Below are positions 35,001-63,452 of a stretch of 64,000 bases of DNA, piece after piece; positions within the stretch are counted from its first letter, which is position 1; each line of letters starts with the position of its first letter. This DNA is from Bacteroidales bacterium (GTDB lineage: Bacteria; Bacteroidota; Bacteroidia; Bacteroidales; F082). A program made the position numbers and the translations under genes. Location: the NCBI GenBank assembly GCA_963676635.1, contig OY781105.1, forward strand, positions 4,173,138-4,237,137, in the 5' to 3' direction. Under the pieces are notes generated by a model. That model did no database searches. It saw nothing but the letters and a program-made list of their open reading frames with translations, and had not been told where the DNA came from.

Positions 35001-38000
35001 TTAGGACGAACTGTCAGGTTGGTTACTATCACACTATCGCAGCCATACTGGGCTGTGTAGAGAGTATCATAAAAAGTACCTGAATTATATCTCCATGCAC
35101 CCTGTGCAAATACGCTATCATAATGACATATGGTAATATCATGAGGCATCTCATAAGTAGGGCGTATGGTAAGCACCATCTCATCGATACTATCACAATT
35201 GATAACATTGGAAGCTATCATGGTAAGAGTAACAGGACCTATCTCGTTAGTGCCGGGCACATATACTGGTCTTTCAACAGTAGGATCAACGAAATAACCT
35301 GTTCCACTGGTAGACCAGTTAATATTAATATAATTAGTTGCAAACGCAGAGTCTGTAGAGTTATTGAAATCATAAGGATAACCAAAACAGGAGTTCTCAT
35401 CAGAGCCGGCAAAAGCGTATGCCCCGGGTATTACAATAAGGTCAACCCATGAAGTATCGTTATCACAAGGAGGAATACCATAACCTACCATCATCATGGT
35501 AATAGTGTCATTTTGTATAGCACCTTCTGTGGCATCAGGGAAATATGTCGGTGTCAGAAGCGTAGGATCGTCAAAGTATCCCAGCCCGTCTGTGTACCAG
35601 TAAATGGAAGCAAAGTCATCAGCAGTAGGAGGATCTGTGCTTTCAGAATAATCATAATACACATCCTGGCATGTATAACCTGTTGATCCTGCATACACTT
35701 CACATGTTGCGTTTATAATCAGCTGTTGGATCATCTGCTCAGAGCAGACATCAAGAGTGATATCAACAGTATCCGGTGTAGTGTATGTATGATTAACGTC
35801 TATACCCGTAGATGTGGCACCATCACCAAACTGCCAGTCCCATGGAGTGAATGTCACCCTGTCGCCTGTTCCTGTGAAATCCACATTGAAATTCTGGCAA
35901 CTCGGACTCTGGAAGATATTAAAGCCAATATTCACATCCATAGCATAGCGGGTTACTGTTGTTGTGTCGATACAGCCATTGCCGTTGGTGTATATTGATT
36001 GTACTATCATATCACCCTCCTGGGTGTATGTATGAGTAGGTGTTTGCCCTGTGCCTGTATTGCCATCACCAAACTGCCATTGCCAGTCGACAATATCGCC
36101 TGTTATATCTATTGCATCGAAGGTCACCAGTTCACCAACACAAGATGTATCATTAGGAGAAACAGTGAATGATGATTCCGGCAAGGTGTTAACAGTTACT
36201 ATATGACGTGTTGTATCCGTACAAATGTTCAGTGTTACCTCATAAACACCGGAGGCTGAATATATATGTTCTGTATTTTTACCAACAGCTGTTTGTCCGT
36301 CACCGAAATCCCATTCCCAGTCGGAGTGGGTTACATTGTCGCCGGTACCATTGAATACAGCGGTATCACCAAGGCACATCACAAATGAAGGCATAGTGAA
36401 GTCGGTATTCACATCATCAACATAAATGGATTCTGTTAATGTAGTTGAACAACCATATTGGTTTGTCATTGTAAGGTCCACGTTATAATCCAAATCACCT
36501 ACAGTGTAATAATGGGTAGTATTTTGACCATTAGCTGTTTGTCCGTCGCCAAAGTCCCATTCCCAATCTGTGATTACACACGAACTTATTCCCTGGAAAT
36601 CCACTAATTCCAAAACACAGCATGTGTCAACCGGAGTGTAAGTAAAGTTGCCGCTGGGAATAGAATCAACGGTCAATATCATTGTAGAGGTATCATTACC
36701 ACATGGAGGCACTCCATAGGCAACAAGTGATAACTCAACATTACCTAATTCATTTACCTGTGTGTTATATATCGGATGTAATAGTTTATCATTATTAAAG
36801 GAGCCAGTACCAGAAGTAAACCAGCGAATACTATCACAATAGCTTGAATCCGGCAATGATGGGGCAAAGGCGAAGTCATAGGGATCGCCCTGACACATTG
36901 TATCGTTATCACCAGCAAAGGCAGAAGCCTGTGGCAATATAACAGCAGTTTCAAAAACCTGTTTTGAACAAACGCTTAAAGAAACGTTGTAGTTACCGGG
37001 GGAGGAGTACAGGTGAGATGTGTCATGGCCTATGGCAGTTTCTCCATCACCAAAATCCCAAATCCAGTCGGTGTACAGCACGTTATCACCAATACCATCA
37101 AAGTTTGTTGTTATTCCCAGGCAAGAAGGGTTAGGAGTAAGGTCAATTCCAATGGTCGGGTCTGTAACCATTATATCATGGTAAGCAGTGTTTGTACATC
37201 CCTCTGTGTTTGTGAGAGTAAGACTAACGCTTTCAACATTGGAAAATGGTGATGAATATTGATATGTGGGATTTTGTTGTGTGGATGAGCCACCATCGGC
37301 AAAATCCCATTCCCAGGATGTTATTGAAGTCCCACTGTTGTCAGATCCGGAAAAGTCAACAAACTCATTAACACAAACGGTATCATTGGGGGAAATGCCA
37401 ATAGCAGGCAGTGGGTTGGCTGTAATTGTAATAGCCAGCTCAGAAGTAACACCGGAACCACAGCTGTCGTTTGTGCCATAAACTTCGAGATTTCCTGCAG
37501 TTGCAAAATCATTGAAATGCAGAAGTACTTGTGGGTCAGCAGGGTCATCATCCTGTATTGTGCAACCTGAGCCTGTATAGCTCCATGTGTATTCTTCAGT
37601 GTTTAAGTCATTATAAACAGAGATTAATACCGATTGTTCACCAGCGCAATAAGATTGAGGAGGCTGAACAAAAACAAGTGAGTCGGGCTCTCTGCTTTCA
37701 TAAATTGTGACTGGTGCAGTACTAAGAGAAGCGGTGTACCACCATGTGTTAAGAGTATAGTTGTTTCCATCCCACCACGAATGACATCCGCTCCATGGAG
37801 AAATTGAACCTGTACAACCCACGTCAGTATTTGAACCACCTCCAATTTGAGAGTCATCCCAAAAAACAGTCGGTGTTCCTCCCGTAGGTGATACAAGTTC
37901 AACCACGAATCCATTGTTGTTACTCTCCACATCGTATAATGGCAGGTTTGTCAGTCCATTAATATAGGTTACAACAAATGTTATCTCTGTTCCATTTGGC

Positions 38001-51364: not shown

Positions 51365-51538
51365 CTGGATTGTGATAGCTGTCAAATGTGTAATGATTAA
51401 TGGATGAACCACACACTGAGCGTAGTTTCATCCGCCTTGGCGGAAGACATGTGCAACTACGTTCGCCTATCAAAAAAACAATAAGAACAGTTACTAGCAG
51501 AATAATTTTTACAATATTTGGGGGTAGTTGCAAACTAC
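51365..51538 (+). repeat. Structured hairpin element, copy 2
   Basis: Outer stem 51418-51427 / 51455-51464 with one G-T wobble, and inner hairpin tccgccttggcgga at 51431-51444. The tail is gcctatcaaaaaaacaataagaacagttac...acaatatttgggg, followed by a second mini-palindrome, gtagttgcaaactac (51524-51538). Confidence 0.8.
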
Positions 51539-51941
51539 ATATATAGGGGGATTAGGTAGCGATAATAAACCCATCATAAATAGCACGAGTCCCCTAACTC
51601 GTATTTTGCAAAGATGTTAGTATTTATAACTGAATTGGTAGTCCCTTCGTTCCCTTAAGTCTCTCCAGTCCTATTTATAGTCCTTGTTATAGCACGAGTG
51701 GGGGGCTTGAGCAATTGTGGGAAATCTAATTGCGTTTGTTCGCTTTCAATATACTTCCTGACTTCCTCAAACATATATTCTTTCTTACTCATTTTTTTTT
51801 CTGACAAGAGTAAATGTTTTTTTTTGTAGTCGGTTGGATACAGTTATTCGGACGAATACGGACAAACATGTTCAATTAATTTGGTTTTCCAGTATAGAGC
51901 ACATTACACAAACTACTACAAGTTACAATTTTGTGTTTAAT

Positions 51942-53174
51942 CTAGAATCTTGAGTGAATTGTATCTAAACTCGTTTGTATGGTATTTGTTTCAGCTTTAG
52001 GGACACCTGATAATTCAGCATACATTTTCCAATTATCGACAATACGCTCGATCTCATCTATTGTATCTTTCGCTTTATTAACAGATAAAACATCTGCTAA
52101 CTCCAGTAACTCTTTCCTTCCCGGATCAACGTAGTTACCAGCGCAAGCTGTACTATGATATCCTTGAGAAGATGAAGAGAATGTCAAGTCATATGCTGGT
52201 GCAAGAGACCACGTTCCTTCAGAATCCATAAGAAACGCAAAGTTTTTAGAATGATCATCACGGTTATGGGCTAAGACGTTAAAAACAGCTCTGCGAAACA
52301 TTTGATGAGCTGCCTGTGCGTTATTTGTTAGCTTCTTTGCTTGATATATTAGATTACCATAATCAAGGGTGCTATGCTCATAGTCATCGTGAAGTAGCCC
52401 TGCAACTGAGAGCATATGCAACTTGTTATTCCCAACACGATCAAATCGCTTGGTTCCAAAATATTTATTCCCAGTTTCACTTTTAAACACCCTACACTCG
52501 GACATTTCAATCCCTGAATCTAAGGCCATTTTATAAAAGGCTAGTTCAATATTAGCTATGTCTTTCAAATCTACATCTGTTGCAAATTTAATAATCCAAT
52601 GTTCATATCCTTCCGGAAGATTAGTGATGCCACTAATGAGTGAATCAGTTTTCGAATTATATCCGGCATAAATTTTTGGACGAGCTCCACCAGGACTTCC
52701 ACCTCTTCCAAACATCTGATCAATTACGACACTACTCTCTCCTTTAATTATTTTAGAAATATTGTTATTTAGTACATCCAGATTAATTTCTATTGCCTCC
52801 TGCTCTAATTCAACACCCGGTTTGTACTGTAGAGCTCCCATACTATTCTTCCCCGCAAGTGTTAAATGATCCAGGGCATTTAGAGATTCAATAGCAATTC
52901 GGTTGGCACTTAGCTGTTTTCTGATTAGTAAATATCCCCAAGCATCCGGTAAAGAGTCAGCAAACACGCCAAAAAGGCCATTGAATGGGTTTTTATTAGC
53001 CGTTTGTGGGTTATCATCAAACATTAACATATTAGGTGATAGATTTGTCCCTGATTTTAAATAATCATCACTATATTTAAAAAGGATATCCCGACCATCA
53101 AGAATTAACTGGCCAACAAGTTTATCTTCAGAAAAATGTATATACACATTGAGTTTAGTTGTCGCCATAATCAA
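51942..53174 (-). CDS. hipA: Type II toxin HipA-family serine/threonine kinase
   Basis: 410 aa with GGSPGGARPK and the NRDDHSKNFAF catalytic-loop motif. It overlaps the upstream HTH gene by 4 bp. Confidence 0.85.
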   Translation of the reverse strand: MIMATTKLNVYIHFSEDKLVGQLILDGRDILFKYSDDYLKSGTNLSPNMLMFDDNPQTANKNPFNGLFGVFADSLPDAWGYLLIRKQLSANRIAIESLNALDHLTLAGKNSMGALQYKPGVELEQEAIEINLDVLNNNISKIIKGESSVVIDQMFGRGGSPGGARPKIYAGYNSKTDSLISGITNLPEGYEHWIIKFATDVDLKDIANIELAFYKMALDSGIEMSECRVFKSETGNKYFGTKRFDRVGNNKLHMLSVAGLLHDDYEHSTLDYGNLIYQAKKLTNNAQAAHQMFRRAVFNVLAHNRDDHSKNFAFLMDSEGTWSLAPAYDLTFSSSSQGYHSTACAGNYVDPGRKELLELADVLSVNKAKDTIDEIERIVDNWKMYAELSGVPKAETNTIQTSLDTIHSRF

Positions 53175-53446
53175 TAATTAAATAAATCTTTTTTCCGTTT
53201 CAGATCATCAATAAGTAAAATAGATTCGAAATCATTCAAGCGATTAAGAGCTTCGCTTATTTTTAAAAGTGATTCAAGAGAAATAATACCTGTTGATTCA
53301 AATTTACGAACAGTAGCGTAAGCTACTCCAGATCTCTCCGACAATTCCCTCTGAGACATCTTCTTCTGTTTCCTTAAGGCAATGATTTTTTTTGATAAAA
53401 GAATCATTATTTCTTTAGGTGAATTTTGATCTCCGTACATTCCCAT
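53171..53446 (-). CDS. hipB: XRE-family HTH antitoxin (HipB-like)
   Basis: 91 aa with LRKQKKMSQRELSERSGVAYATVRKFE (HTH_XRE), translationally coupled to hipA. Confidence 0.75.
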   Translation of the reverse strand: MGMYGDQNSPKEIMILLSKKIIALRKQKKMSQRELSERSGVAYATVRKFESTGIISLESLLKISEALNRLNDFESILLIDDLKRKKDLFNY

Positions 53447-53496
53447 GTCTGCATTTATTTTTACAACACAAAGATAGAAAATTTACTACCCTAAAT

Positions 53497-53551
53497 GCTA
53501 CTATAGTGGCAAAATATTCTATAATAAATGGAAATATGTTACTATAATAGC
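53497..53551 (-). promoter_or_regulatory. Two GYTACTATARTRGC imperfect palindromes upstream of hipB (candidate operators), plus a TATCTTTG -7 box at 53469-53476
   Basis: gctactatagtggc (53497-53510) and gttactataatagc (53538-53551), 41 bp apart. The minus-strand TATCTTTG lies ~20 nt before the ATG. Confidence 0.35.
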
Positions 53552-53773
53552 AATTTTGAGGAGGTATCCTAATTATTAATAGGAGAATGTCTAAACAAAT
53601 CCAACAGGAAAGACAAAGATGTCTCCTTGATCCAATCTGATACATATTCAAGCCGAAAAGAGGTTGATTTATGATAATTACATTATCACTTCTTCGACAA
53701 TTTTCATACTGTTTTCTAGATAAATTCAACTTTAAAATTCACTACACCTAGTGGGGAGACCTCCTCCATCTGG

Positions 53774-54019
53774 GTGTAGATTGATTGCAATAGATTGAAT
53801 GTAAGGTACGAGAGCTAAAATGAGATAAACCCACTGAGCGTAGTTTCATCCGCCTAGGCGGCGGACAGGTGCAACTGCGCTCGCCTATCAAAAAAACAAT
53901 TAGAACAGTTATTATGCAGAATTGTGTTTACGATATTTGGGGGAATTTCAAATTAGACCCGGAGGGGGGATAGTCATTCAATAAAACAATCAACCCCCTT
54001 AATAAGTGCATTGAAAACT
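53774..54019 (+). repeat. Structured hairpin element, copy 3 (full length)
   Basis: Left arm gtgtagattgattgcaatagattgaatgtaaggtacgagagctaaaatgagataaaccc. Hairpin 53836-53882 with one T-G wobble. Tail ...cattcaataaaacaatcaacccccttaataagtgcattgaaaac. The right end coincides with the hsdM truncation point. Confidence 0.8.
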
Positions 54020-54589
54020 GTGATGTAGCTCAACATGGACTCCTGCTTTTTTTTCCGAACCTGAGGCAAACTGACCAATCAAATATTCATACGTATCTCC
54101 AAGGGTATCGGTGTCAGTGGAAAAATCAGCAATTCCTTCGGCAATTTTTTGAATGATGGTGCAAAGCTTTTTGTTTCGGTCGGTTGGTGTTTTTCCAAGT
54201 TTCTCAGAGTTTAAGTTAATTTCTGAAAACAAACCATGAAAGGAATTATCAAAGGATTCGGTTTCGATGTATTTATAACTCTCCACCAAAGTTTCCAGCA
54301 ATTCGCAGTCCTGGGTACTGGCAAGCTCGGCGATGTTGTTCCACAAGAATTCCGGTTTGATTACATAATGTACCTTTCGGCGCATTTGTTTCTCAAATTC
54401 AACAACATCATCCGGTTAATCTCCACCTAATTCCTTCTTGGCCGATTCCTCATAATTGGCAGATAAACACCTTAAAAAAAGAAACGAAAGCATATAATCA
54501 CGGAAACCATCAGCATTCATTGCCCCACGAAGCTGGTCTGCTATTGCCCAAAGGGTTTTACTTAATTTATGTTGTTCTATTTGTGTCAT
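53999..54589 (-). pseudogene. hsdM: Type I restriction-modification methylase subunit HsdM, N-terminal fragment (frameshifted and 3'-truncated)
   Basis: MTQIEQHKLSKTLWAIADQLRGAMNADGFRDYMLSFLFL... (start 54589), a frameshift near 54390-54420, then ...LGDTYEYLIGQFASGSEKKAG followed by unrelated sequence from ~54040. No AdoMet-binding or catalytic NPPF region, and no hsdS or hsdR. Confidence 0.8.
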
Positions 54590-54611
54590 ACTGTATTCTT
54601 TTTTGTCTGAA

Positions 54612-55031
54612 TCAGGATTTTCCTGATTTAAGGATTTCCTGATTACTTTGTTTGGTGTATTTGGGGTTGTATATTTTTTTAAACTGTAAACTTTTGCCAC
54701 CAAAATTGATTAGCAAGCCAATAGGCTTATCGTAGGCCACAACATAGTTTTTAGCTTGCGTCAGGTGCACATCTTCTAAGTTGATGAGTGCTTTTAGTTC
54801 GACAATTACCAAATCTTCCACCACAAAATCAGCGCGTCTTGTGCCTACTTCAATATCTTCATAGTAAATGGCATGTTCTTGTTCTCTGGCAAAAGAAATA
54901 CCTGCATGCTCCAATTCAATAGCCAAACATCTCTGGTAAATGACTTCCTGAAATCCATTGCCCAGAGTATTATGCACTTTCATTGCACAACCATTTATTT
55001 TGTATGTCAGTTCATCTAAGGTCATAAACAA
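54612..55031 (-). CDS. GxxExxY family protein (PD-(D/E)xK-like), copy 1
   Basis: 139 aa with the family-typical pattern LTYKINGCAMKVHNTLGNGFQEVIYQRCLAIEL...ADFVVEDLVIVELKA. Confidence 0.8.
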   Translation of the reverse strand: MFMTLDELTYKINGCAMKVHNTLGNGFQEVIYQRCLAIELEHAGISFAREQEHAIYYEDIEVGTRRADFVVEDLVIVELKALINLEDVHLTQAKNYVVAYDKPIGLLINFGGKSLQFKKIYNPKYTKQSNQEILKSGKS

Positions 55032-55142
55032 TTATTTTTTTCCATCCTGTTAATATAAAATCTTGTACATCTTACTATCCTGTACACTATTATTTTTTCA
55101 AATCCTGTTCATCCTGTCATCCTGTATTCTTTTTTGTCTGAA

Positions 55143-55562
55143 TCAGGATTTTCCTGATTTAAGGATTTCCTGATTACTTTGTTTGGTGTATTTGGGGTTG
55201 TATATTTTTTTAAACTGTAAACTTTTGCCACCAAAATTGATTAGCAAGCCAATAGGCTTATCGTAGGCCACAACATAGTTTTTAGCTTGCGTCAGGTGCA
55301 CATCTTCTAAGTTGATGAGTGCTTTTAGTTCGACAATTACCAAATCTTCCACCACAAAATCAGCGCGTCTTGTGCCTACTTCAATATCTTCATAGTAAAT
55401 GGCATGTTCTTGTTCTCTGGCAAAAGAAATACCTGCATGCTCCAATTCAATAGCCAAACATCTCTGGTAAATGACTTCCTGAAATCCATTGCCCAGGGTA
55501 TTATGTACTTTCATTGCACAACCATTTATTTTGTATGTCAGTTCATCTAAGGTCATAAACAA
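55143..55562 (-). CDS. GxxExxY family protein, copy 2 (identical protein)
   Basis: The translation is identical to copy 1. Confidence 0.8.
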   Translation of the reverse strand: MFMTLDELTYKINGCAMKVHNTLGNGFQEVIYQRCLAIELEHAGISFAREQEHAIYYEDIEVGTRRADFVVEDLVIVELKALINLEDVHLTQAKNYVVAYDKPIGLLINFGGKSLQFKKIYNPKYTKQSNQEILKSGKS

Positions 55563-55687
55563 TTATTTTTTTCCATCCTGTTAATATAAAATCTTGTACA
55601 TCTTACTATCCTGTACACTATTATTTTTTCAAATCCTGTTCATCTTGTCATCCTGTAAATCCTGATTCAGACAATTTTTTCATTAAC

Positions 55688-55840
55688 CCCCACTGAGCGT
55701 AGTTTCATCCGCCGTGGAGGCGGATACGTGCAACTACGCTCGCCTATCAGAATAGTTATTATGCAGAATTTTATTTACAGTATTTGGATGTAGTTTCATT
55801 CAATAAAACAAGCAAATCCCTTAATAAGTGCATAGAATAC
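55688..55840 (+). repeat. Structured hairpin element, copy 4 (left arm missing, A-run shortened)
   Basis: Perfect outer stem 55695-55704 / 55732-55741 and inner hairpin tccgcc-gtgga-ggcgga at 55708-55724. The tail ...tttcattcaataaaacaagcaaatcccttaataagtgcatagaatac matches copy 3. Confidence 0.8.
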
Positions 55841-55896
55841 GGGGACGCTGGGTTTTGCAAACCGCTCAGATTACTATTTATTGTGCACTGGCTTTT

Positions 55897-56382
55897 TTAC
55901 CAATTCAACTTTCCTTTCTTCCAAAATATGAATGCCATAATATTCATTAACACACATAATCCAATGATTACGAAACCAAGCTGTTTTTGAAATCCGTTTC
56001 TAACAAAGTATGCTTGTTCTTCCTTGTCTATAAATTGTATATACCTATTTAGTCCACTATTTTTAGTGTCTGATGTTTCGTAATAGTATACATCAATTTT
56101 GTCACCAACATTTAAGTCGTCTATCCTTTTATCTGTTGGTTCACTATTTGGTTCATAGATTTCAAAAAGATAAGGATAAGTGTCTACTTTTAAATATCTA
56201 TAATCACCTTTATTTCGAATTGGAAAATTTTGAAATTTCTTTTCTAAATACTCAATTGTTCCGGTTGATTTGTCATATTCTGATTTCTCTTTGGAATTAT
56301 TTACAATCACAAATATTCCAAGTCCAAGTACTATAATTGAAGTAAAAATTACTCCACGAACACTTATTATTATTGGTATCAT
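55897..56382 (-). CDS. Hypothetical membrane protein (two predicted TM helices flanking a soluble domain; DUF3592-like topology)
   Basis: 161 aa with an N-terminal TM (VIFTSIIVLGLGIFVIV) and a C-terminal TM (LGFVIIGLCVLMNIMAFIFW). No catalytic motif was recognised. Confidence 0.5.
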   Translation of the reverse strand: MIPIIISVRGVIFTSIIVLGLGIFVIVNNSKEKSEYDKSTGTIEYLEKKFQNFPIRNKGDYRYLKVDTYPYLFEIYEPNSEPTDKRIDDLNVGDKIDVYYYETSDTKNSGLNRYIQFIDKEEQAYFVRNGFQKQLGFVIIGLCVLMNIMAFIFWKKGKLNW

Positions 56383-56490
56383 ATTTCTCTTTTTCTAGCT
56401 TTTGCACAACGGTTTGGCAATTCGTAGTGCGGGATTTATAGGTGCTTTACTTTTTTTTTACTACAAAATTTATATACTTTGATAATCTCT

Positions 56491-57534
56491 CTATTTATCA
56501 ATATCACCTGCATTACGTAAAGCTATTGTTAGCATTTGTTTTAATTCTTTTGATGTTGGAACTTTTCCTTTGAGTTTCTCTGGTATTCTATGTGTCAATT
56601 TATATTCTGATACTCCAATTGGTTTATTACTGGTTCTCAAAGCGTATTCGACTTCAAGGTTATCTTTTACAGGACACAAGATTATTCCGATTGAGGGATT
56701 GTCATCAACTTGCTTTTCCTGTTCGTCAAGAAGTTCGAGGTAGAAATTCATTTTGCCGGCAAATTCAGGTTCAAATTCAACCGTTTTTAATTCAATGGCA
56801 ATTAAGCATTTCAATATACGGTGATAGAATAACAAATCAATAAAATACTCCTTTTGATTAAGCTTTAATCTATATTGATTTCCAATAAGACTAAATCCGT
56901 AACCGAGTTCTAAAAGCAGGTCTCTTATATTTTCAATAAGTTTATTTTCTAATTCTTTTTCTAAAACAGGTTTTGTAATTCCGAGAGAATCAAGATTGTA
57001 TTCACTCTTTAGGGCTTCGTTAGCTTGTTATGAAAGATGTACAGGAAGAGCTTTATCAAAATTGCTTGTTTTTTCGTTTGTCAACTGATGTTGATAAGCA
57101 ATTGCTTTAATCTGATTAAGTAACACTGCTCTACTCCAGCCTAATTGGTCGGTTGCTTGTAAATAATACTTCCGTTCTTTATTGTCTTTCAGTTGTTGAA
57201 TAATAAGCATATTCTGTCCCCATGGAATTTTCATTGCCCTCTCTAAAAGTTCAGGCTCATTTTTATATTCCAGATAAAACTGTCTCATTCTCCATAAATT
57301 CTGAGGTGAATATCCTTTAGCTCCATCCATTTGTTTATTTATGTCTTTCGACAAAGTGTTAACAATAGATTGTCACCACTTATTCTTATCCTGATTTTCT
57401 ACGATTATTCTGCCAATTTCAAAATTATGTCCTATATGATACTTATTCAAAGACTTGAAAGCTTGGTATCTTGCTGAGTTAATCGTGTCGATTATTTCAC
57501 TAAAAAAATTGTTGTATGCTGATAATTTATTCAT
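56491..57534 (-). pseudogene. DUF1016 / YhcG-like PD-(D/E)xK nuclease gene, disrupted by a stop and frameshifts
   Basis: There are three in-order fragments. They are MNKLSAYNNFFSEIIDTINSARYQAFKSLNKYHIGHNFEIGRIIVENQDKNKW* (57534 downward), the 57354-57028 fragment (..PQNLWRMRQFYLEY..GWSRAVLLNQI..) and the 56835-56491 fragment (..LIAIELKTVEFEPEFAGKMNFYLELLDE..). Confidence 0.75.
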
Positions 57535-57551
57535 GTTCAAATTTATTCAAA

Positions 57552-57609
57552 ATCTCTCACAATTGTGATAGAGATTTAAAATTCAATTCTCTCACAGCTG
57601 CGATAGAAT
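57552..57609. promoter_or_regulatory. Two 24-bp direct repeats, each an internal palindrome (TCACAATTGTGA / TCACAGCTGCGA)
   Basis: atctctcacaattgtgatagagat (57552-57575) and attctctcacagctgcgatagaat (57586-57609). They lie 20-75 bp upstream of the yhcG-like start and adjacent to the IS110 left side. Confidence 0.4.
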
Positions 57610-57649
57610 TGGGATCTAGCCTTTTTAAATAAATGCTAATGGTCACTTG

Positions 57650-57830
57650 TAAGTTGTCGTTGCGGATTTCGGAGCTCGTTCCTGTCCGGCAGTACGGAAC
57701 GATGTTGCGAGAATCCAGTGTACGACACACCACTGACCCCGTAATGCAATTTACAATTTTTTAGCGTTTCGTGCTTTATTTTTTCAGTCAATGCGGTGGG
57801 TAAAGCAGGCTCTTATACAGGTTTTGGTTG
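57650..57830 (+). ncRNA. Candidate IS110 bridge (guide) RNA in the 5' non-coding end
   Basis: A locally GC-rich patch in AT-rich surroundings has nested pairings: gtcgt...acgac, ggatt...aatcc and cgttcc-tgtccggcagta-ggaacg. Further downstream are ggtggg...cccacc and ggatt-aa-aatcc. The position matches where IS110-group elements encode their bridge RNA. Confidence 0.3.
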
Positions 57831-58034
57831 AGTGTTGGCTTGTGCGACCTGTAAATGTGCCTGATTGTGCTTAGGATTAAAATCCCGGATATTTTTCCCA
57901 CCACTCATCATTTGTATTGAAAGAGTCTCCTTTAAACTTAACATATAGGCCGTATGTTTGTAAAATAATAAGCTTCTACACATTTTAGTTAATTTTATAG
58001 TGACAAACAATTAATAACTAAAATATAGAAGCTT

Positions 58035-59111
58035 ATGAATGCCAAAGTTAACAAAATTAGTTTTGCCGGAACAAACATTTATATTGGAATAGATGTTCAT
58101 TTAAAGAGTTGGAAAGTAACAATTATGGTTGATAATATTACTTATAAATCATTTTCAATGGATCCTGATGTTCAGATATTAGTTAAACATCTTGAACAAA
58201 ACTTTCCTGAAGGTAATTATTTCTCAGCATACGAGGCAGGGTTTAGCGGATTCCATTTACATAGGGAACTAATTCTCTGTGGTATAAACAATATAGTAGT
58301 AAACCCAGCAGATATTCCAACAACTGATAAAGAAAACAGACAAAAGGAAGATAAACGAGACAGTAGAAAGATAGCTCGCTCATTACGAAATGGAGAACTC
58401 ATAGGTATCTATATTCCTGATCGTGAAATCGAAGAGTTGCGAGGATTGGTCAGATATAGAAAACGATTAGTTGAGGACATATCCAGACAAAAAATTAGAA
58501 TAAAATCTTTTTTACGTTATCATGGTATTAAGATACCCAACGAGCATAGGTCAGGATCACAGCACTGGTCGGCTAGATTTACAAATTGGTTGAATAACAT
58601 AGAAATGAGTACTGCTTATGGTTCTGAAGTTATTTCATATTCTGTTAAAACTGTAAGTTTTTTACGCAAACAGTTATTGGATGTAAACAAGTTGTTGAAA
58701 GAGGTAGCACAACAAGAACCCTATGCAAATCAGATGTCTCTTCTGCGAAGTATACCAGGAGTAGGTCTTGTAGTTGCATTTACACTTTTAACAGAAATTG
58801 TAGATATAAACAGGTTTAAAAATCTTGATAGATTATGTTCTTTTGTGGGATTAATTCCAACAACAAACTCAAGTGGAGAAAGAGAAAAAACTGGCAACAT
58901 AACATACAGAAGCAACCAATCATTACGAGGAGTTTTGTTTGAAAGCGCATGGATAGCAATTAGGTATGATCCTGTATTGGCAAGTACATACCATAAGTTG
59001 TGTAAGAGAATGAACGGTAACAAAGCCATAGTAAAAATAACAAAGAAACTGCTTAGTAGAATACGATTCGTTTTAAAGAATCAACAAGAATATAAAGTGC
59101 TTATGAATTAA
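58035..59111 (+). CDS. IS110-family transposase (DEDD RuvC-like N-terminal domain plus Transposase_20 C-terminal domain)
   Basis: 358 aa with YIGIDVHLKSW..., ...SAYEAGFSGF..., and LRSIPGVGLVVAFTLLTEI..F.....LCSFVGLIPT..SSGE, typical of the IS110 family. Confidence 0.9.
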   Translation: MNAKVNKISFAGTNIYIGIDVHLKSWKVTIMVDNITYKSFSMDPDVQILVKHLEQNFPEGNYFSAYEAGFSGFHLHRELILCGINNIVVNPADIPTTDKENRQKEDKRDSRKIARSLRNGELIGIYIPDREIEELRGLVRYRKRLVEDISRQKIRIKSFLRYHGIKIPNEHRSGSQHWSARFTNWLNNIEMSTAYGSEVISYSVKTVSFLRKQLLDVNKLLKEVAQQEPYANQMSLLRSIPGVGLVVAFTLLTEIVDINRFKNLDRLCSFVGLIPTTNSSGEREKTGNITYRSNQSLRGVLFESAWIAIRYDPVLASTYHKLCKRMNGNKAIVKITKKLLSRIRFVLKNQQEYKVLMN

Positions 59112-59288
59112 TAAAAATCATCAATAATGACTTATCAGTTAAAAGACAGTTACCCAAACCTTGCGATATCAATTGATATTCGTTTCCTTTAGGCTGCTGC
59201 TTTTATCAATAAATCTCTAAACAAGGCAATGCGGTGCTATTTATCAAGAAAGTATCCGTTTATAGAAGTGTGTTTTTATTGATGTTGG

Positions 59289-60383
59289 TTACTGATAAAA
59301 AAGAAAATTATGTGAAAAAAATGTGTGAAAGTTTGGAATACAACATAGAAGGTCTTGGGCTATTTGATTTACAATTTCATTGGCTTTGAGATTTCTTATC
59401 CATTGTTCTGGAATTTTGTCAATACCGTTAATCAGTCCAAGGATATTGCCAGTTATTGAACCTGTGCTATCACTGTCTCCGCTGTGATTCACTGAAAAAC
59501 GGATTCCATTTTTAAAATCTCTTTCAAAAATCAGACTTGCGTACAATGAAATTGACAAAGCTTCTTCTGCAATCCATCCTTGACCTAATTCTTCAATTGT
59601 TTCGGCACTTATTTTATCGCTTTGTGATTTAGTTTTTTCGAATAAAATAATTGCCGCGTTTACTGCATTTTTAGTTTCTGAATTATTGTCCCAATTTTCG
59701 AGAATTTGGATTGCATTGTCAATTGATTTACGGAGTTCAATGCCAATTGCTAAATCAGAAATTATTGAAGCAAAGAAACCTGCACTTAAATATCCCGTTG
59801 GATGTCCATGCGTAATTGCGGAAAGTTCACAGGCAACTTTAAAAGCATTTTCATTTTCTCCCTCGAACATTAATCCGACCGGAGCAATTCTCATAATAGT
59901 TCCACAACCTTTGCTATCGTTTATTGGATTTTCAATTGTTCCGGCAATGCCACTACTCAAAGCAGAAATACAGGTATTCCCAGGAGCACGTCTGTTATAC
60001 AATACTTTCTCTTTTATAAGCCATCCTTTCTCCACGTCGTATTTTCCATCCTTAATGTTGTCAATGTTTACACCAATATTTTGAGTATGCAACCAACGTA
60101 AATAAGAATGATGGGCAATTGCATTCAGTGCACCTCCAATTCCTTTCAGCATTGCCCGATGATAAGCACGTAGCAGGGCTTCCGCGGTAAATAGTGTCAT
60201 TTGGGTGTCATCTGTAAATTCTCCGGTATTGTTCTCAAATTCTACAAAGTCTAATATTCCATTTTTTCCAAATTTTGCTTTTATTTGAGATAGACTGAGA
60301 AATTCAATTGGTGCGCCTAAAGCATCTCCAACAGCACCACCAATTAAACAACCGATGTAGTGCGAAAAATCTATTTTTTCCAT
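59289..60383 (-). CDS. ADP-ribosylglycohydrolase family protein
   Basis: 364 aa with the binuclear-metal ARH fold motifs GGAVGDALGAPIEF, ...TDDTQMTLF... and ...GDSDSTGSITGNILG. The last ~20 aa look atypical, so the 3' end is possibly remodelled next to the IS110. Confidence 0.8.
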   Translation of the reverse strand: MEKIDFSHYIGCLIGGAVGDALGAPIEFLSLSQIKAKFGKNGILDFVEFENNTGEFTDDTQMTLFTAEALLRAYHRAMLKGIGGALNAIAHHSYLRWLHTQNIGVNIDNIKDGKYDVEKGWLIKEKVLYNRRAPGNTCISALSSGIAGTIENPINDSKGCGTIMRIAPVGLMFEGENENAFKVACELSAITHGHPTGYLSAGFFASIISDLAIGIELRKSIDNAIQILENWDNNSETKNAVNAAIILFEKTKSQSDKISAETIEELGQGWIAEEALSISLYASLIFERDFKNGIRFSVNHSGDSDSTGSITGNILGLINGIDKIPEQWIRNLKANEIVNQIAQDLLCCIPNFHTFFSHNFLFYQ

Positions 60384-60433
60384 GCCTATTGTTTTAATTC
60401 AATTAATTCATCTTTTCGTTCAAGGATTGCGGC

Positions 60434-60616
60434 TTATGTTATTGAAACAATCTCCTCTATTTCAGGCCAGAATTTATTTATTGCATGATAAATTTCGTTA
60501 TCATCTTTTTCATTCATTTCTTCCAAGTCAAACTTCCATTTTCGGTGAAAATGAACTAACCATTTATTACCAGATGGTGTTTTGCTTTTTGGAAGCGAAA
60601 TCAAGCTTTTATTCAA
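60434..60616 (-). CDS. Small hypothetical ORF upstream of the ARH gene (no ATG start; possibly 5'-truncated)
   Basis: 60-aa frame starting at TTG. The frame stays open upstream to a stop at 60692-60694 without any ATG. It lies 50 bp upstream of the ARH start on the same strand. Confidence 0.25.
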   Translation of the reverse strand: MNKSLISLPKSKTPSGNKWLVHFHRKWKFDLEEMNEKDDNEIYHAINKFWPEIEEIVSIT

Positions 60617-60729
60617 TATTTGTTTTACAATATTATCATTCTCTGTCTGACTACCTTCTGCAATTACAGTCTTAAAATTAATAAATTTTGTCTAATCTTA
60701 GACTGTCTTATTTTTTGGGGATACTACAG

Positions 60730-60890
60730 GTGTAGATTGATTGCGAAAGATTGAATGTAAGGTACGAGAGCTAAAATGAGATAAACCCACTGAGCGTAGT
60801 TTGCAACTACGCTCGCCTATCAAAAAAACAATAATAACAGTTACTATGCAGAACTATATTTACAATATCTGGGTATAGTTGCAATCTGCA
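60730..60890 (+). repeat. Structured hairpin element, copy 5 (lacks the inner palindrome)
   Basis: The left arm is nearly identical to copy 3. A perfect 22-nt palindrome, gagcgtagttgcaactacgctc, lies at 60793-60814. The tail is gcctatcaaaaaaacaataataacagttactatgcagaac...tagttgcaatctgca. Confidence 0.8.
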
Positions 60891-61100: not shown

Positions 61101-61313
61101 AATGGTGAATGGAGGGACAAGGGAACCGCCTGAGGCGGTCAGGCAGGGACAAAGGGACAAGGTGACAAAGAGACAAGGTGACAAAGGGAACCGCCTGAGG
61201 CGGTCAGGCAGTGACAAGGTGAAAAATATGCGCAGCTCACCATCCGCCGGTGGGCGGACACGGCTCACTATTCATCCGACTGAGTCGGACACGGCCACCA
61301 TTCACCACTCACC
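61101..61313. repeat. Modular repeat block D (GTGACAAGG-type words plus four small palindromes)
   Basis: ccgcc-tga-ggcgg twice (61126, 61191), tccgcc-ggtg-ggcgga (61243-61258) and tccgac-tga-gtcgga (61275-61289). It is inverted relative to block E. Confidence 0.75.
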
Positions 61314-61427
61314 ACACAACATGGCAGGGGAGAGGGATGGAGTTTGTGTTGGTGGTGACTTGATTTATATTCGTCAGAGGTGTTAAACCAAAAATGCTGT
61401 ACTTAATACGTCAAAGATGCAATCTGA

Positions 61428-61575
61428 GATGCTATGCATTCGTGACCCCCTTAATAGTAAACAAGATGTGAGTCAAATGCTATGCATTCGCAAGCTCCTA
61501 AAATAATAGACAAGATGTGAGTCAAATGCTGTGCATTCGCGAACTCCTAAATAATAGACAAGATGTGAGTCAATC
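61428..61575 (+). repeat. 48-49-bp tandem repeat, about 3 copies
   Basis: The unit gatgtgagtcaaatgct(a/g)tgcattcgc.a.ctcctaaa(a)taatagacaa starts at 61465, 61514 and 61562, with a diverged leading unit from ~61428. Confidence 0.8.
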
Positions 61576-61589
61576 CAATTTACAGCAAA

Positions 61590-61880
61590 TTTATCTATGC
61601 TTTCAGGCATGATAAATTGATACTCAATGCGTCAGTGATACATTTTGAAATGCTTTTCAGTCACAATTTCAAAAAAATATAAAGTTTGTAATTCAAGTCG
61701 ATTTATAGACATGAAATCTATGCTTTCAGGCATAGATAAGTTGTATACTTAATACGTCAAAGGTACCATCTAAGATGCTGTAATTGTGCACAAATATTAT
61801 TGTGAGTCCAACGCTATGCATAGTCAAATAATCTCTGCTTTCAGGCATAGCTAAACTTTTTTTTCAATACGTCAAAGAAC
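61590..61880 (+). repeat. Degenerate ~120-bp units, each with a ctatgc-tttcag-gcatag hairpin followed by an AATRCGTCA box
   Basis: Hairpins lie at 61595-61611, 61716-61737 (8-bp stem) and 61833-61850. Boxes lie at 61401-61416, 61622-61637, 61746-61763 and 61865-61877. Confidence 0.65.
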
Positions 61881-62370
61881 AATTTTAAATCCTTTGGATT
61901 TGCGAACTTCTCCCGCTACTACAGCCTCCATTCTAATACAAATCCATACAAACAAGACTTAAAGTACGATTTAATCATCCAGGAGCGTTAAGTGTGCTCG
62001 TCTATGCCACAGGACTCATAATCCCTCAGGTAGCAAGGCATAGTAAATAAACAGCGAATTCTCTTTCTTAAGCATCTTGTAATCTCTTTTCTAATGTTCA
62101 ATGGATTAATGACCAATCCCTCAGGATCTTCTGCGGGAGACAAGGGCATAATCAATGCATGCCCACTCTCAGACAAGGAACTTACAGCAGATTTCAAGAT
62201 GTTTGTTAAAGTTTTAGCAACTAATGAGCCGGCAGTAAATATTGTGATTAACAAAAAAAGTACTGGTTGCATAATTGCGTATTGTTCGTTTGTCATAATA
62301 GGTTAATGCTTAGATTATGACGTAAAGATACGTAATTTTTTGATTGATTATACATAATATTAAGGGAATG

Positions 62371-62400
62371 TCTGCTATTGTCTGCTATTGTCTGTTATTG
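62371..62400 (+). repeat. 10-bp tandem repeat (tctgctattg x 3, third copy with 1 substitution)
   Basis: Read directly; the period equals one helical turn. Confidence 0.85.
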
Positions 62401-62723
62401 TCCACCATATTCTAAATTATTCTGATAAAGCAAGTATTAATGTAGGGTTATACCTTTTTGCTCAAATAATACGCTAAACAAGGAGATTTTTGGGAAATAA
62501 TTTGGAAATGCGACTTCCTTTCTGACGATAAAAGAGAAGAAATACCTATTATTGAAATTAATTATGCGAAAACCCGAAAATAAACTGGGCGAGCGGGTTT
62601 TTAGTAATATTAAAAGAATCCACTGAATTACTGTATGCACAATATCAAACACATACGGGCTTTATTCCATTATAAACACACTCAAAAAACGCCATAATTA
62701 CTCTAAAAACCAGCCTAGTTCAA

Positions 62724-63152
62724 ACTACACTAAAACTACACTAAAACTACACTAACTACACTAAATCGGATTGAAGCTGTGATATATGTCACATTCAATG
62801 TTGAGGAAGCGCATTTTTTTTCAAAAAAGTGTTTATAATTACATAATGCAGTAAAAAACACTGAAAATTTGATTGTTATATTATCCTATGAATATGTATA
62901 TCAGATATATACAAGGTGTATTTTATATTTTTATAAACAATATCAGCTAAAAATTCATAAAAATTTAGTGTAGTTTGGTCTAATTTAGTGTAGTTTTAGT
63001 GTAGTTTGAAAAGGCCAAACTACACTGGGTTTGTCGCTGATAAACAAATCATTACAAAGTTTAGTGTAGTTAGTGTAGTTTTTTTTCTAAAAGTATTTTT
63101 GAAAAAAGTAAATATATAAATAACATAGTGCAACCTACACTAACTACACTAA
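62724..63152. repeat. Iteron-like array: 12 copies of (A)CTACACTAA in opposed clusters around a ~200-bp AT-rich spacer
   Basis: Direct copies lie at 62724, 62735, 62746 and 62755. Inverted copies lie at 62965, 62985 and 62996, with a partial direct copy at 63019. Two more inverted copies lie at 63061 and 63070, and two more direct copies at 63135 and 63144. Confidence 0.85.
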
Positions 63153-63249
63153 ACTATTTTTGGATTGTTAAAATAATGATTTATGTTAAAGTTAATGTTC
63201 AAAGTTTAAATTTGGGAATTAAGGAAAACCAGGTATTTTTCATTTTTTT

Positions 63250-63452
63250 GGTGAATAGTGAACTGTGTCCGCCTACCGGCGGATGGTGAGTGGTGAATGG
63301 TGAATAGTGAATAGTGAGCTGTGTCCGCCTACCGGCGGATGGTAAGCAGAGCGCTTTTCTCACTTTGTCCCTTCGTTCCCTTCAGTCCCTAGAGTCTCTT
63401 CAGTCATTTTTCATTATTCATTTTTCATTATTCTTTTCTTACCCCTTGTCCC
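63250..63452. repeat. Modular repeat block E (GGTGAAT words, two tccgcc-tacc-ggcgga palindromes, TTCATTA words, CCTTGTCC)
   Basis: Palindromes at 63268-63283 and 63324-63339. Module order parallels block B (25782-25954) and the reverse complement of block D. Confidence 0.75.

What the first reader, a model, noticed from the sequence alone, without database searches (positions are those of the whole stretch)
62724..63152. Twelve CTACACTAA boxes in opposed clusters with ~11-bp phasing (iteron or centromere-like architecture)
Four direct boxes are spaced 11, 11 and 9 bp (62724-62764). A ~200-bp very AT-rich spacer follows. Then come three inverted boxes (62965, 62985, 62996), a partial direct box (63019), two inverted boxes (63061, 63070) and two direct boxes (63135, 63144). 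Helical-turn phasing and opposed clusters around an AT-rich core resemble plasmid iterons and parC-type centromeres. In R1 parC, two sets of 11-bp repeats flank a promoter. They also resemble multi-site operators of RHH or wHTH proteins. No rep or par gene is visible within the window.
Basis: partly seen in the sequence, partly recalled or inferred. Interest (0 to 1): 0.65.

Follow-up and report, generated by a model that had tools for sequence, protein, structure and literature searches.

The report
Orphan iteron-type replication origin module
The twelve boxes are real and match the repeated binding sites (iterons) that flank an AT-rich centre in replication origins of Bacteroidota phages and integrated elements, but this copy has no initiator gene in the 64 kb read, so it is probably a stranded origin in a repeat-rich stretch of chromosome.

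Summary
Observation confirmed. Eleven exact CTACACTAA boxes and one partial box lie in 62725-63152. Shuffles predict 0.9 boxes in the whole window. The full box is AACTACACTAA. A 196-bp spacer of 76% AT separates opposed arrays.

The iteron reading holds. The parC centromere reading does not. The same box, in the same layout, recurs across Bacteroidota. In six independent lineages it sits within about 600 bp of a primase-helicase gene (VapE/D5 type, SF3 class). Two of these helicases are sequence relatives of the staphylococcal SaPI Rep proteins. SaPI origins are 6-12 short iterons in opposite orientations around an AT-rich centre, bound by the Rep C-terminal winged helix.

Seven rumen loci share the window's layout, including an exact 65-bp step from the inner inverted array to an outer inverted pair. 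One carries the Rep gene about 130 bp downstream. The others lack it.

The window has no Rep relative and no DnaA box near the boxes. The unit (62617-63170) has different flanks in a related sample. Box arrays are multi-copy in the source genome.

Best reading: a Rep-less copy of a SaPI-like origin module (confidence 0.6). No binding or replication was tested. DNA beyond 64000 is unseen.

The parts
62617..63170 (.). Discrete 554-bp unit that carries all the boxes
   Evidence: In run X2, contigs match the window from 62617 to 63170 and continue into unrelated sequence on both sides. X2's 429-bp contig 62726-63154 differs from the window at 2 positions. The whole unit is 72.6% AT.
62723..62765 (+). 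Left inner iteron array: four direct AACTACACTAA boxes, spacing 11, 11, 9
   Evidence: (families D1/D3). It aligns with the 4-5 direct boxes at 11-bp spacing of rumen loci L103, L108, L115, L120 and L125.
62767..62962 (.). AT-rich centre (76% AT), the candidate DNA-unwinding region
   Evidence: top 1.2% of 196-bp windows for AT content. The 40-bp duplex stability is about 2 to 2.7 sd less stable than the window mean at 62850-62960. There is no tandem repeat inside it. This differs from the rumen units, which carry 22-bp tandem repeats there.
62963..63007 (-). Right inner iteron array: three inverted boxes (TTAGTGTAGTT), spacing 20, 11
   Evidence: In inverted repeat I1, arms 62719-62766 and 62963-63010 are 48 nt long and 85% complementary.
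63016..63026 (+). Partial direct box CAAACTACACT, which forms a short palindrome with the last inverted box
   Evidence: D1. Inverted repeat I16 gives 15-nt arms (62967-62981 and 63012-63026). The sequence read directly is AGTGTAGTTTG-aaaaggc-CAAACTACACT.
63060..63081 (-). Outer inverted pair, spacing 9, starting exactly 65 bp after the last inner inverted box
   Evidence: The same 65-bp step is present in L103, L105, L108, L115, L120, L121 and L125.
63082..63132 (+). Short, very AT-rich spacer with a Bacteroidota -7-like promoter motif TATTTTTG at 63094-63101
   Evidence: The stretch 63079-63134 is 84% AT and includes one of the least stable 40-mers of the window. The motif was read directly; the TAnnTTTG consensus is from my own knowledge. 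The spacer resembles the right end of the rumen unit joined to its left end (5 of 500 shuffles reach the score).
63133..63153 (+). Direct pair, spacing 9, opposed to the outer inverted pair
   Evidence: inverted repeat I2: arms 63047-63081 and 63132-63166. It resembles the direct pair at the left end of the rumen unit.

Best explanation
The locus is a copy of a replication-origin module used by Bacteroidota phages and integrated elements, and this copy has no initiator gene in the 64 kb read.

The AACTACACTAA boxes are iterons. Each is an asymmetric site for one DNA-binding domain of a self-loading primase-helicase (VapE/D5 type, SF3 class). That domain is most likely the C-terminal winged helix, as in SaPI Rep.

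Inferred mechanism, by analogy with SaPI. Initiator molecules fill the opposed arrays on one face of the helix. The 11-bp phasing would place them there. Two helicase rings assemble facing each other. The AT-rich centre (62767-62962) melts between them. The outer pair, the second AT-rich stretch and the promoter-like motif correspond to the segment that lies just upstream of the Rep gene in complete elements. There, the same bound protein would also control its own promoter.

In this window no Rep gene follows within 850 bp, so the module can act only in trans. It could fire when a phage or island with a matching initiator is present, or it could simply bind and titrate that initiator. It may also be inert.

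What is shown: the boxes, their layout, the AT-rich centre, the conservation of that layout, and the linkage to helicase genes elsewhere. What is inferred: binding, melting, and any present-day activity of this copy.
For: 1. The cluster is far above chance and has an AT-rich, unstable centre.

2. A search by DNA pattern alone, blind to genes, put the exact box pair within about 600 bp of SF3-type primase-helicase genes in six independent lineages:
- L008/L014/L107/L110, L012 and L125: BT4734_N + VapE + DUF3874 proteins, with the boxes upstream.
- L033 and L081: VapE/DUF5906 helicases, with the boxes just after the stop codon.
- L127 = L067 = L099: Prim-Pol plus a D5_N/DUF5906 helicase.

3. L127 carries the identical box at 11-bp phasing on both sides of an 83% AT core, about 210 bp from the primase start.

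4. A search by protein gave L089/L090, L093 and L094. In each, the VapE helicase stop codon is followed at once by 8-12 boxes with the related cores CTACTACA, ACTACAY and GACTACA. They lie in both orientations in L093 and L094 and are mainly direct in L089. Almost none lie elsewhere in those loci. The C-terminal 170 residues of these helicases and of the Prevotella Reps are homologous.

5. The L093 and L008 helicases hit SaPI1 Rep1 (PDB 7PDS; E = 5e-8 and 9e-8). The L127 helicase hits SaPI5 PriRep5 (7OLA; E = 3e-12). PMC9371898 describes SaPI origins as 6-12 iterons next to rep, half on each side of an AT-rich centre, with at least two per side pointing in opposite directions. They are bound by the Rep C-terminal winged helix.

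6. Seven rumen loci share the window's layout, including the exact 65-bp step. L125 has the Rep gene about 130 bp after the outer pair.
Against: - There is no Rep, primase or helicase relative anywhere in the 64 kb. The 850 bp to the right of the boxes holds only repeats.
- No binding or replication experiment exists for this box in any organism I could find.
- The same box is used next to three different replication-protein architectures: BT4734-VapE-DUF3874, Prim-Pol + D5, and a DnaG-type primase fused to a P-loop domain. Their C-termini show no detectable similarity to one another. The binder could therefore be another shared or host protein.
- In the phages the cluster also lies at the border of the packaging module. 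A small terminase gene is 0.6-1.4 kb away in L093, L094 and L127.
- Rep-less copies outnumber Rep-linked ones in rumen metagenomes. The arrays may therefore have a life of their own.
- In the window the centre lacks the 22-bp tandem repeats of the rumen units.
Confidence: 0.6

Rival explanations
1. The 554-bp unit is a non-autonomous mobile element (MITE-like). The opposed box arrays would be the binding sites of the protein that moves it. This could coexist with an origin ancestry.
For: - The unit has different flanks on both sides in run X2.
- Box arrays are multi-copy in the source genome. Box-containing contigs have depth 270-500, against about 140 for single-copy DNA.
- The rumen unit of about 630 bp has sharp, shared boundaries and different flanks in L103, L108 and L120. 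It has opposed box pairs near both ends.
- Most rumen copies lack Rep and sit among ordinary chromosomal genes.
Against: - No target-site duplication and no clean terminal inverted repeat can be seen at 62617/63170.
- No transposase or integrase was found next to the arrays whose neighbouring genes I annotated.
- L120 keeps the Rep promoter and the first codons. At least that Rep-less copy arose by loss of the gene, not by transposition.
- The gene next to complete copies is always a replication protein.
Confidence: 0.12
2. The boxes are a multi-site operator. A small repressor or activator (RHH or wHTH type) would bind them to control promoters inside the unit, without any role in replication.
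For: - A TAnnTTTG -7-like motif lies at 63094-63101, between opposed pairs.
- In L008, L014 and L125 the same kind of motif lies between the last boxes and the Rep start codon.
- In the common gut phage the 12-14-box cluster lies about 50 bp upstream of the first gene of the next operon.
Against: - No conserved small DNA-binding gene accompanies the arrays across lineages. The only recurrent neighbour is a primase-helicase.
- Nothing that looks like a regulated gene follows in the window.
- A 196-bp AT-rich gap between opposed arrays is typical of origins rather than operators (my own knowledge).
Confidence: 0.1
3. The arrays are a phage packaging signal (cos or pac) recognised by a small terminase. 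The window's copy would allow packaging by a helper phage or would be a relic of one.
For: - In L093, L094 and L127 a small terminase gene lies 0.6-1.4 kb beyond the cluster.
- In the L002-type phage the cluster precedes the head module.
- In L046/L077 the box pair lies about 560 bp after a gpA-type large terminase gene.
Against: - The Prevotella Rep-linked modules (L125, L008, L012) have no packaging genes nearby. L125 is followed by LuxS and a sigma factor.
- In L033, L081, L089, L093 and L094 the cluster starts right at the stop codon of the helicase gene, as in SaPI origins.
- The order rep, origin, packaging genes is the normal layout of such elements (my own knowledge of SaPI gene order; the position of the origin next to rep is from PMC9371898).
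Confidence: 0.07
4. The arrays are a partition centromere of the R1 parC type, bound by a ParR-like adaptor.
For: The repeats have 11-bp phasing and form two clusters around a promoter-like AT-rich stretch.
Against: - The arrays are inverted relative to each other. From my own knowledge, the parC repeats are direct.
- No ParM/ParA or ParR/ParB gene appeared among the neighbouring genes I annotated.
- Recurrent linkage is to helicases.
Confidence: 0.04

Closest known systems
SaPI / PICI replication origins with Rep, a self-loading SF3 helicase (Staphylococcus aureus pathogenicity islands; PMC9371898 and its references, Ubeda 2007 and 2012)
   Same: - Both have 6-12 short iterons, half on each side of an AT-rich centre, with at least two per side pointing in opposite directions.
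- In both, the origin lies directly beside the helicase gene in complete elements.
- The helicases next to related arrays are sequence relatives of SaPI1 Rep1 and SaPI5 PriRep5.
   Different: - The boxes are 9-11 bp rather than 5-6 bp.
- The AT-rich centre is longer (196 bp).
- There is an extra outer tier of box pairs at a fixed 65-bp distance.
- The host phylum is Bacteroidota.
- This copy has no Rep gene in the 64 kb read.
Phage P4 ori and crr, bound by the alpha primase-helicase (my own knowledge)
   Same: One protein combines primase, SF3-type helicase and a C-terminal origin-binding domain. It recognises short repeats present in both orientations. A second, gene-distant repeat cluster (crr) acts in cis.
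   Different: The P4 repeat is an unrelated 8-mer. P4 is proteobacterial. No homology to alpha was tested here.
Classical iteron plasmids (pSC101, F, RK2, P1; review PMC4980987 appeared, but the features listed here are from my own knowledge)
   Same: Both have repeated initiator sites next to an AT-rich unwinding element. Extra iteron clusters away from the origin titrate the initiator and cause incompatibility. That is a possible role for a Rep-less copy.
   Different: Those iterons are 17-22-bp direct repeats with DnaA boxes and an adjacent rep gene of another family. Here the boxes are shorter and opposed, and no DnaA box lies within 61-64 kb.
R1 parC centromere
   Same: Both show 11-bp phasing and two repeat clusters around a promoter.
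   Different: The parC repeats are all direct and lie upstream of parM and parR. Here the arrays are inverted, and no partition gene appeared among the annotated neighbours.

Membership tests
SaPI-type origin (iterons + SF3 self-loading Rep) | Six to twelve short iterons | tested here: met
   There are 11 exact boxes and 1 partial box in 428 bp. The feature is taken from PMC9371898.
SaPI-type origin (iterons + SF3 self-loading Rep) | An AT-rich region near the centre, with iterons on both sides | tested here: met
   A 196-bp spacer of 76% AT lies between 4 boxes on one side and 3 on the other. It is in the top 1.2% of windows for AT content and contains low-stability stretches.
SaPI-type origin (iterons + SF3 self-loading Rep) | At least two iterons on each side pointing in opposite directions | tested here: met
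   The boxes left of the centre are on the + strand and those right of it on the - strand. The inverted-repeat arms are 48 nt long and 85% complementary.
SaPI-type origin (iterons + SF3 self-loading Rep) | The origin lies immediately next to the rep (helicase) gene | tested here: not met
   There is no helicase or primase relative in the 64 kb and no ORF of note in 60.4-64.0 kb. DNA beyond 64000 was not available. The feature is met in related loci L125, L008, L012, L127, L033 and L081.
SaPI-type origin (iterons + SF3 self-loading Rep) | The cognate Rep binds the iterons and supports replication | not testable with these tools
   This needs a gel-shift or footprint assay and a replication assay.
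Classical iteron plasmid origin | Direct 17-22-bp iterons, DnaA box(es) and an adjacent rep gene | tested here: not met
   The boxes are 9-11 bp and lie in both orientations. No DnaA box with one mismatch or fewer lies in 61-64 kb. There is no rep gene.
R1 parC-type centromere | Two sets of direct 11-bp repeats flanking the promoter of adjacent parM and parR genes | tested here: not met
   The arrays are opposed, not direct. No par gene was found among the window genes that I scanned.
MITE-like non-autonomous element | Terminal inverted repeats, target-site duplication, and multiple copies with different flanks | tested here: inconclusive
   Multiple copies and different flanks are seen. No target-site duplication or clean terminal repeat is seen at 62617/63170. 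Empty sites could not be searched.

The most novel reading that the evidence does not exclude
Rep-less copies of the origin module are not debris. They would form a dispersed family that is either maintained or self-propagating in Bacteroidota chromosomes.

One version: they act as decoys. They would soak up the initiator of incoming phages that use the same box, which would be an origin-mimic form of phage interference.

The other version: they are minimal satellites. They would be amplified in situ, and spread, when a helper supplies the primase-helicase.

The resemblance of the window's pair-to-pair junction to the two ends of the rumen unit joined together would then reflect a circular intermediate.
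Probability: 0.12. Interest if true: 0.8.

Novelty: new variant of a known kind. Interest (0 to 1): 0.5.

Why it matters
Replication origins of Bacteroidota phages and integrated elements are almost uncharted. In my searches this box did not appear in the literature as a motif.

A recognisable origin signature would be useful in three ways:
- It would help to annotate origins in gut and rumen phages. About 50 IMG/VR contigs carry one conserved 12-box cluster.
- It would help to delimit integrated elements and to assign the abundant BT4734/VapE/DUF3874 genes a role as initiators.
- It could provide origins for genetic tools in Bacteroidota.

The many Rep-less copies raise a testable question. 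Do stranded origins influence phage replication, or local chromosome copy number, when a matching initiator enters the cell?

Tried and rejected
- blastn of 62300-63300 against plasmid and phage record collections found nothing. The L002 phage region also found nothing among the phage records.
- Rfam gave only two sub-threshold chance hits.
- The sigma-70 promoter and terminator scan was at the chance level.
- A literature search for the box as a string returned only primers and unrelated sequences.
- I tried to read beyond 64000. Exact-protein look-ups of four window proteins found no record. A metagenome scan with a 25-mer from the window's end found nothing. Run contigs are too fragmented in this repeat-rich region.
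- Laying the source runs on the L127 replication genes matched only the boxes.
- A chromosomal oriC was rejected: there are no DnaA boxes.
- An inversion of the spacer was considered as the cause of the A/T differences between the window and X1. It was rejected, because the changed positions do not form a reversed segment (read).
- A profile comparison of the L002 primase with the Prevotella Rep showed no shared domain.
- A viral scan with the L127 helicase returned only the same contig.

Full report
**1. The observation**

CTACACTAA occurs 12 times in the 64-kb window. Eleven of these lie within 428 bp:
- Plus strand: 62725, 62736, 62747, 62756.
- Minus strand: 62965, 62985, 62996.
- Minus strand: 63061, 63070.
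- Plus strand: 63135, 63144.

Dinucleotide-preserving shuffles give a mean of 0.88 and never reach 12. One-mismatch variants are at the chance level across the window. The signal is therefore a cluster of exact boxes, not a frequent word.

A partial box, CAAACTACACTgg (63016-63026), forms a small palindrome with the last inner inverted box. The spacings are 11, 11, 9 | 20, 11 | 9 | 9.

The spacer 62767-62962 is 76% AT, in the top 1.2% of 196-bp windows. It holds some of the least stable duplex of the region. The short stretch 63079-63134 between the last two box pairs is 84% AT.

**2. Surroundings**

The window is a Bacteroidota chromosome segment. Its genes include:
- type IX secretion genes and cargo proteins (PorP/SprF, several Por_Secre_tail proteins, two giant ORFs);
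- a hybrid sensor kinase;
- IS3- and IS110-family transposases;
- HipA;
- a broken hsdM and a broken YhcG gene;
- an ADP-ribosylglycohydrolase.

From 60.4 kb to the end there is no convincing ORF. This stretch is a patchwork of tandem and dispersed repeats. There is no tRNA gene and no Rfam family. No DnaA box lies within 61-64 kb. No relative of any replication protein from the related loci is present in the window.

**3. The source genome**

Three public runs were listed, and two of them (X1, X2) hold the region. X1 carries the same organism. Contigs of 7054, 2028, 1938 and 1378 bp match the window without a single difference, at a depth of about 140.

The 60.7-64 kb stretch is broken into short contigs at 4 to 14 times that depth. 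It is therefore built from sequences repeated in the genome. Box-containing contigs have depths of 270 to 500. Another array variant with 10-bp spacing (CTACACTAAG repeated) exists elsewhere in X1. The AT-rich spacer is close to single copy in X1 (depth 190) but differs from the window at 9 positions.

In X2 a contig covering 62726-63154 differs at only 2 positions. Its neighbouring contigs leave the window sequence at 62617 and at 63170. The boxes therefore sit in a discrete 554-bp unit that occurs with other flanks in a related sample.

**4. The same box elsewhere, found by DNA pattern alone**

I scanned for two boxes 9 to 11 bp apart. This gave 25 loci in species-representative genomes, 60 in viral contigs and 31 in metagenomes.

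(a) *A gut phage family.* About 50 viral contigs and six genome loci belong to one gut Bacteroidales phage family of 20-48 kb. It has an almost invariant cluster of 12-14 ACTACA(C) boxes in about 215 bp, in both orientations. The cluster lies between a module with a 1068-aa DnaG-type primase fused to a P-loop domain and the head module.

(b) *Prevotella and rumen loci.* In L008, L012, L014, L107, L110 and L125 the arrays lie upstream of a roughly 705-725-aa protein with BT4734_N (an archaeo-eukaryotic primase domain), VapE-like and DUF3874 domains. The distances run from about 60 bp (L008) to nearly 600 bp (L014). The nearest boxes in L012 and L014 are degenerate. PMC11724360 and PMC5862659 describe this family as a primase-helicase of mobile elements.

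(c) *Phage L127 (= L067, L099).* The intergenic region reads as follows: five or six TTAGTGTAGTT boxes at 11-bp phasing, a core of 83% AT, then four AACTACACTAA boxes. This is the window's box and phasing. It lies about 210 bp from a Prim-Pol gene, which is followed by a D5_N/DUF5906 helicase gene.

(d) *L033 and L081.* The exact box pair lies just after the stop codon of VapE/DUF5906 helicase genes.

(e) *Outside Bacteroidota.* A Prochlorococcus island has the boxes at the 3' end of an AAA_25 replication protein gene. Four DPANN archaeal loci have them inside a shared P-loop protein gene.

(f) *Other contexts.* The remaining hits are Rep-less arrays among ordinary genes, or short tandem runs that may be chance. 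One pair lies after a large terminase gene.

**5. The reverse search, by protein**

I searched viral contigs with the Prevotella Rep alignment. This returned 13 loci. In L089/L090, L093 and L094 the VapE helicase stop codon is followed at once by 250-400 bp holding 8-12 boxes. Their cores are CTACTACA, ACTACAY and GACTACA. They lie in both orientations in L093 and L094 and are mainly direct in L089. Almost none occur elsewhere in those loci.

These cores are variants of the window's ACTACAC. The last 170 residues of these helicases and of the Prevotella Reps are homologous. Related proteins thus sit beside related boxes.

**6. Link to a characterised system**

The L093 and L008 helicases match SaPI1 Rep1 (PDB 7PDS; E = 5e-8 and 9e-8). 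The L127 helicase matches SaPI5 PriRep5 (7OLA; E = 3e-12). The identity of these PDB entries was checked in PMC9371898.

That paper summarises the SaPI origin as follows:
- There are six to twelve iterons immediately downstream of rep.
- An AT-rich region lies near the centre, with half of the iterons on each side.
- At least two iterons per side point in opposite directions.
- They are recognised by a winged helix in the Rep C-terminal domain.

The window's unit meets the three structural criteria. It fails the fourth, adjacency to rep.

**7. Architecture shared with rumen elements**

Seven rumen loci (L103, L105, L108, L115, L120, L121, L125) show the window's plan where the locus covers it (L105 and L121 hold only the right half):
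1. four or five direct boxes at 11 bp;
2. a centre;
3. three to six inverted boxes at 11 bp;
4. exactly 65 bp to an inverted pair at 8-9 bp.

In L125 the Rep ORF starts about 130 bp after that pair. L120 keeps the promoter and the first codons only. L103, L108 and L115 have unrelated flanks. Rep-less copies are thus common in another lineage too. At least one of them arose by loss of the gene.

There are two differences:
- The rumen centre holds hairpins and six to eight 22-bp tandem repeats. The window's centre is plain AT-rich DNA.
- The window has an extra direct pair after the outer inverted pair. The 54 bp between these two pairs resembles the right end of the rumen unit joined to its left end (5 of 500 shuffles reach the score). 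This is suggestive only.

**8. Interpretation**

The best-supported reading is an origin module of the SaPI/P4 kind, present here without its initiator gene (confidence 0.6).

- *Shown:* the boxes, their order and phasing; the AT-rich centre; the conservation of the layout; the repeated linkage of the same and related boxes to SF3 primase-helicase genes; and the homology of those helicases to SaPI Rep.
- *Inferred:* that the C-terminal domain of such a helicase binds the boxes; that melting occurs in the centre; and that this copy can respond in trans.

The main weakness is that three different replication-protein architectures accompany the same box, with no detectable shared C-terminal domain. 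I also could not see beyond 64000.

The rivals are a MITE-like mobile unit (0.12), an operator (0.10), a packaging site (0.07) and a parC-like centromere (0.04). The first two can coexist with an origin ancestry.

**9. Novelty and score**

The kind of system is known: iterons around an AT-rich centre, served by a self-loading helicase. Three things appear to be undescribed:
- this Bacteroidota box family;
- its two-tier layout with a fixed 65-bp step;
- the abundance of Rep-less, dispersed copies.

Literature searches found nothing on them. I rate it a new variant of a known kind, with interest 0.5.

Noticed in passing
window 61429-61573 and 61571-61877: A 48-bp tandem repeat occurs in 3 copies. 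Next to it are three copies, 115-123 bp apart, of a unit ending in CTATGCTTTCAGGCAT followed by AATACGTCAAAG. Depth in run X1 suggests several copies in the genome.
   Followed up: partly
window 62369-62402: TGTCTGCTAT is repeated 3.4 times in tandem, about 320 bp left of the first box. It lies outside the 554-bp unit as defined by X2.
   Followed up: no
window 63251-63346, 61119-61225 and 61230-61275: GC-rich hairpin repeats are embedded in GGTGAAT/GGGACAA short repeats. One type is GTGTCCGCCTACCGGCGGATGG and the other GGAACCGCCTGAGGCGGTCAGGCAG. X1 depth reaches about 5700 against 140 for single-copy DNA, so these are a REP-like family of some 40 copies. Spurious ORFs run through them.
   Followed up: partly
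window 53999-55562: An hsdM gene is split into HsdM_N fragments (53999-54385, 54416-54703). Two identical 139-aa PDDEXK_3 ORFs lie beside it (54612-55031, 55143-55562). This ORF family has about 16-fold depth in X1.
   Followed up: partly
window 56491-57354: A YhcG/DUF1016 nuclease gene is broken into an N-terminal piece (57028-57354) and a C-terminal piece (56491-56835). Together with HipA, IS110 and the hsdM debris, this makes 51-60 kb look like a decayed mobile or defence island.
   Followed up: partly
window 12705-39154: There are two giant paralogous ORFs (13825-25449, 3874 aa; 29075-39154, 3359 aa). Each has a 367-aa ORF next to it (12705-13808 is PorP/SprF by Pfam; 27955-29058 has the same length but was not scanned). 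An IS3-family integrase-core ORF (26511-27410) lies between them. This is a large tandem duplication of a type IX secretion cargo locus.
   Followed up: no
window 51444/60786 and 61240/62481 (run X1): X1 contigs at about single-copy depth join 51444 to 60786 (skipping 9.3 kb) and 61240 to 62481. Each has only 29-37 letters on the short side. They are either repeat-mediated assembly joins or real deletion variants of the island.
   Followed up: no
window 62767-62981 versus run X1: The AT-rich centre differs from X1 at 9 positions, 7 of them A/T swaps, while flanking single-copy genes are identical. X2's copy, which has other flanks, differs at only 2. This could reflect exchange between unit copies.
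   Followed up: partly
L015 4365-4751 (Prevotella MAG): A Rep-less array unit lies between a YicC-like gene and a Cas9 gene that starts at 5461. It has opposed boxes, a long internal palindrome and 22-bp tandem repeats. It is homologous to the unit upstream of the Rep gene in L014, which is from the same MAG.
   Followed up: partly
L001, L005, L016, L021 (DPANN archaea) and L009 (Prochlorococcus): The identical 9-mer in tandem occurs inside a shared archaeal P-loop protein gene, where it encodes TTLTTL in L016. It also occurs at the 3' end of an AAA_25 replication protein gene in a Prochlorococcus island with an integrase and a capsid gene. Opposed boxes lie nearby in most of these loci. I cannot tell whether this is convergence or a very wide family.
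   Followed up: partly
L103, L108, L120, L125 (rumen unit ends): The rumen unit of about 630 bp begins with CTGAAAAAAT and ends with GCTGAAAATG. It has a direct box pair about 20 bp inside the left end and an inverted pair about 25 bp inside the right end. The short direct repeat at the two ends could be an insertion or recombination site.
   Followed up: partly
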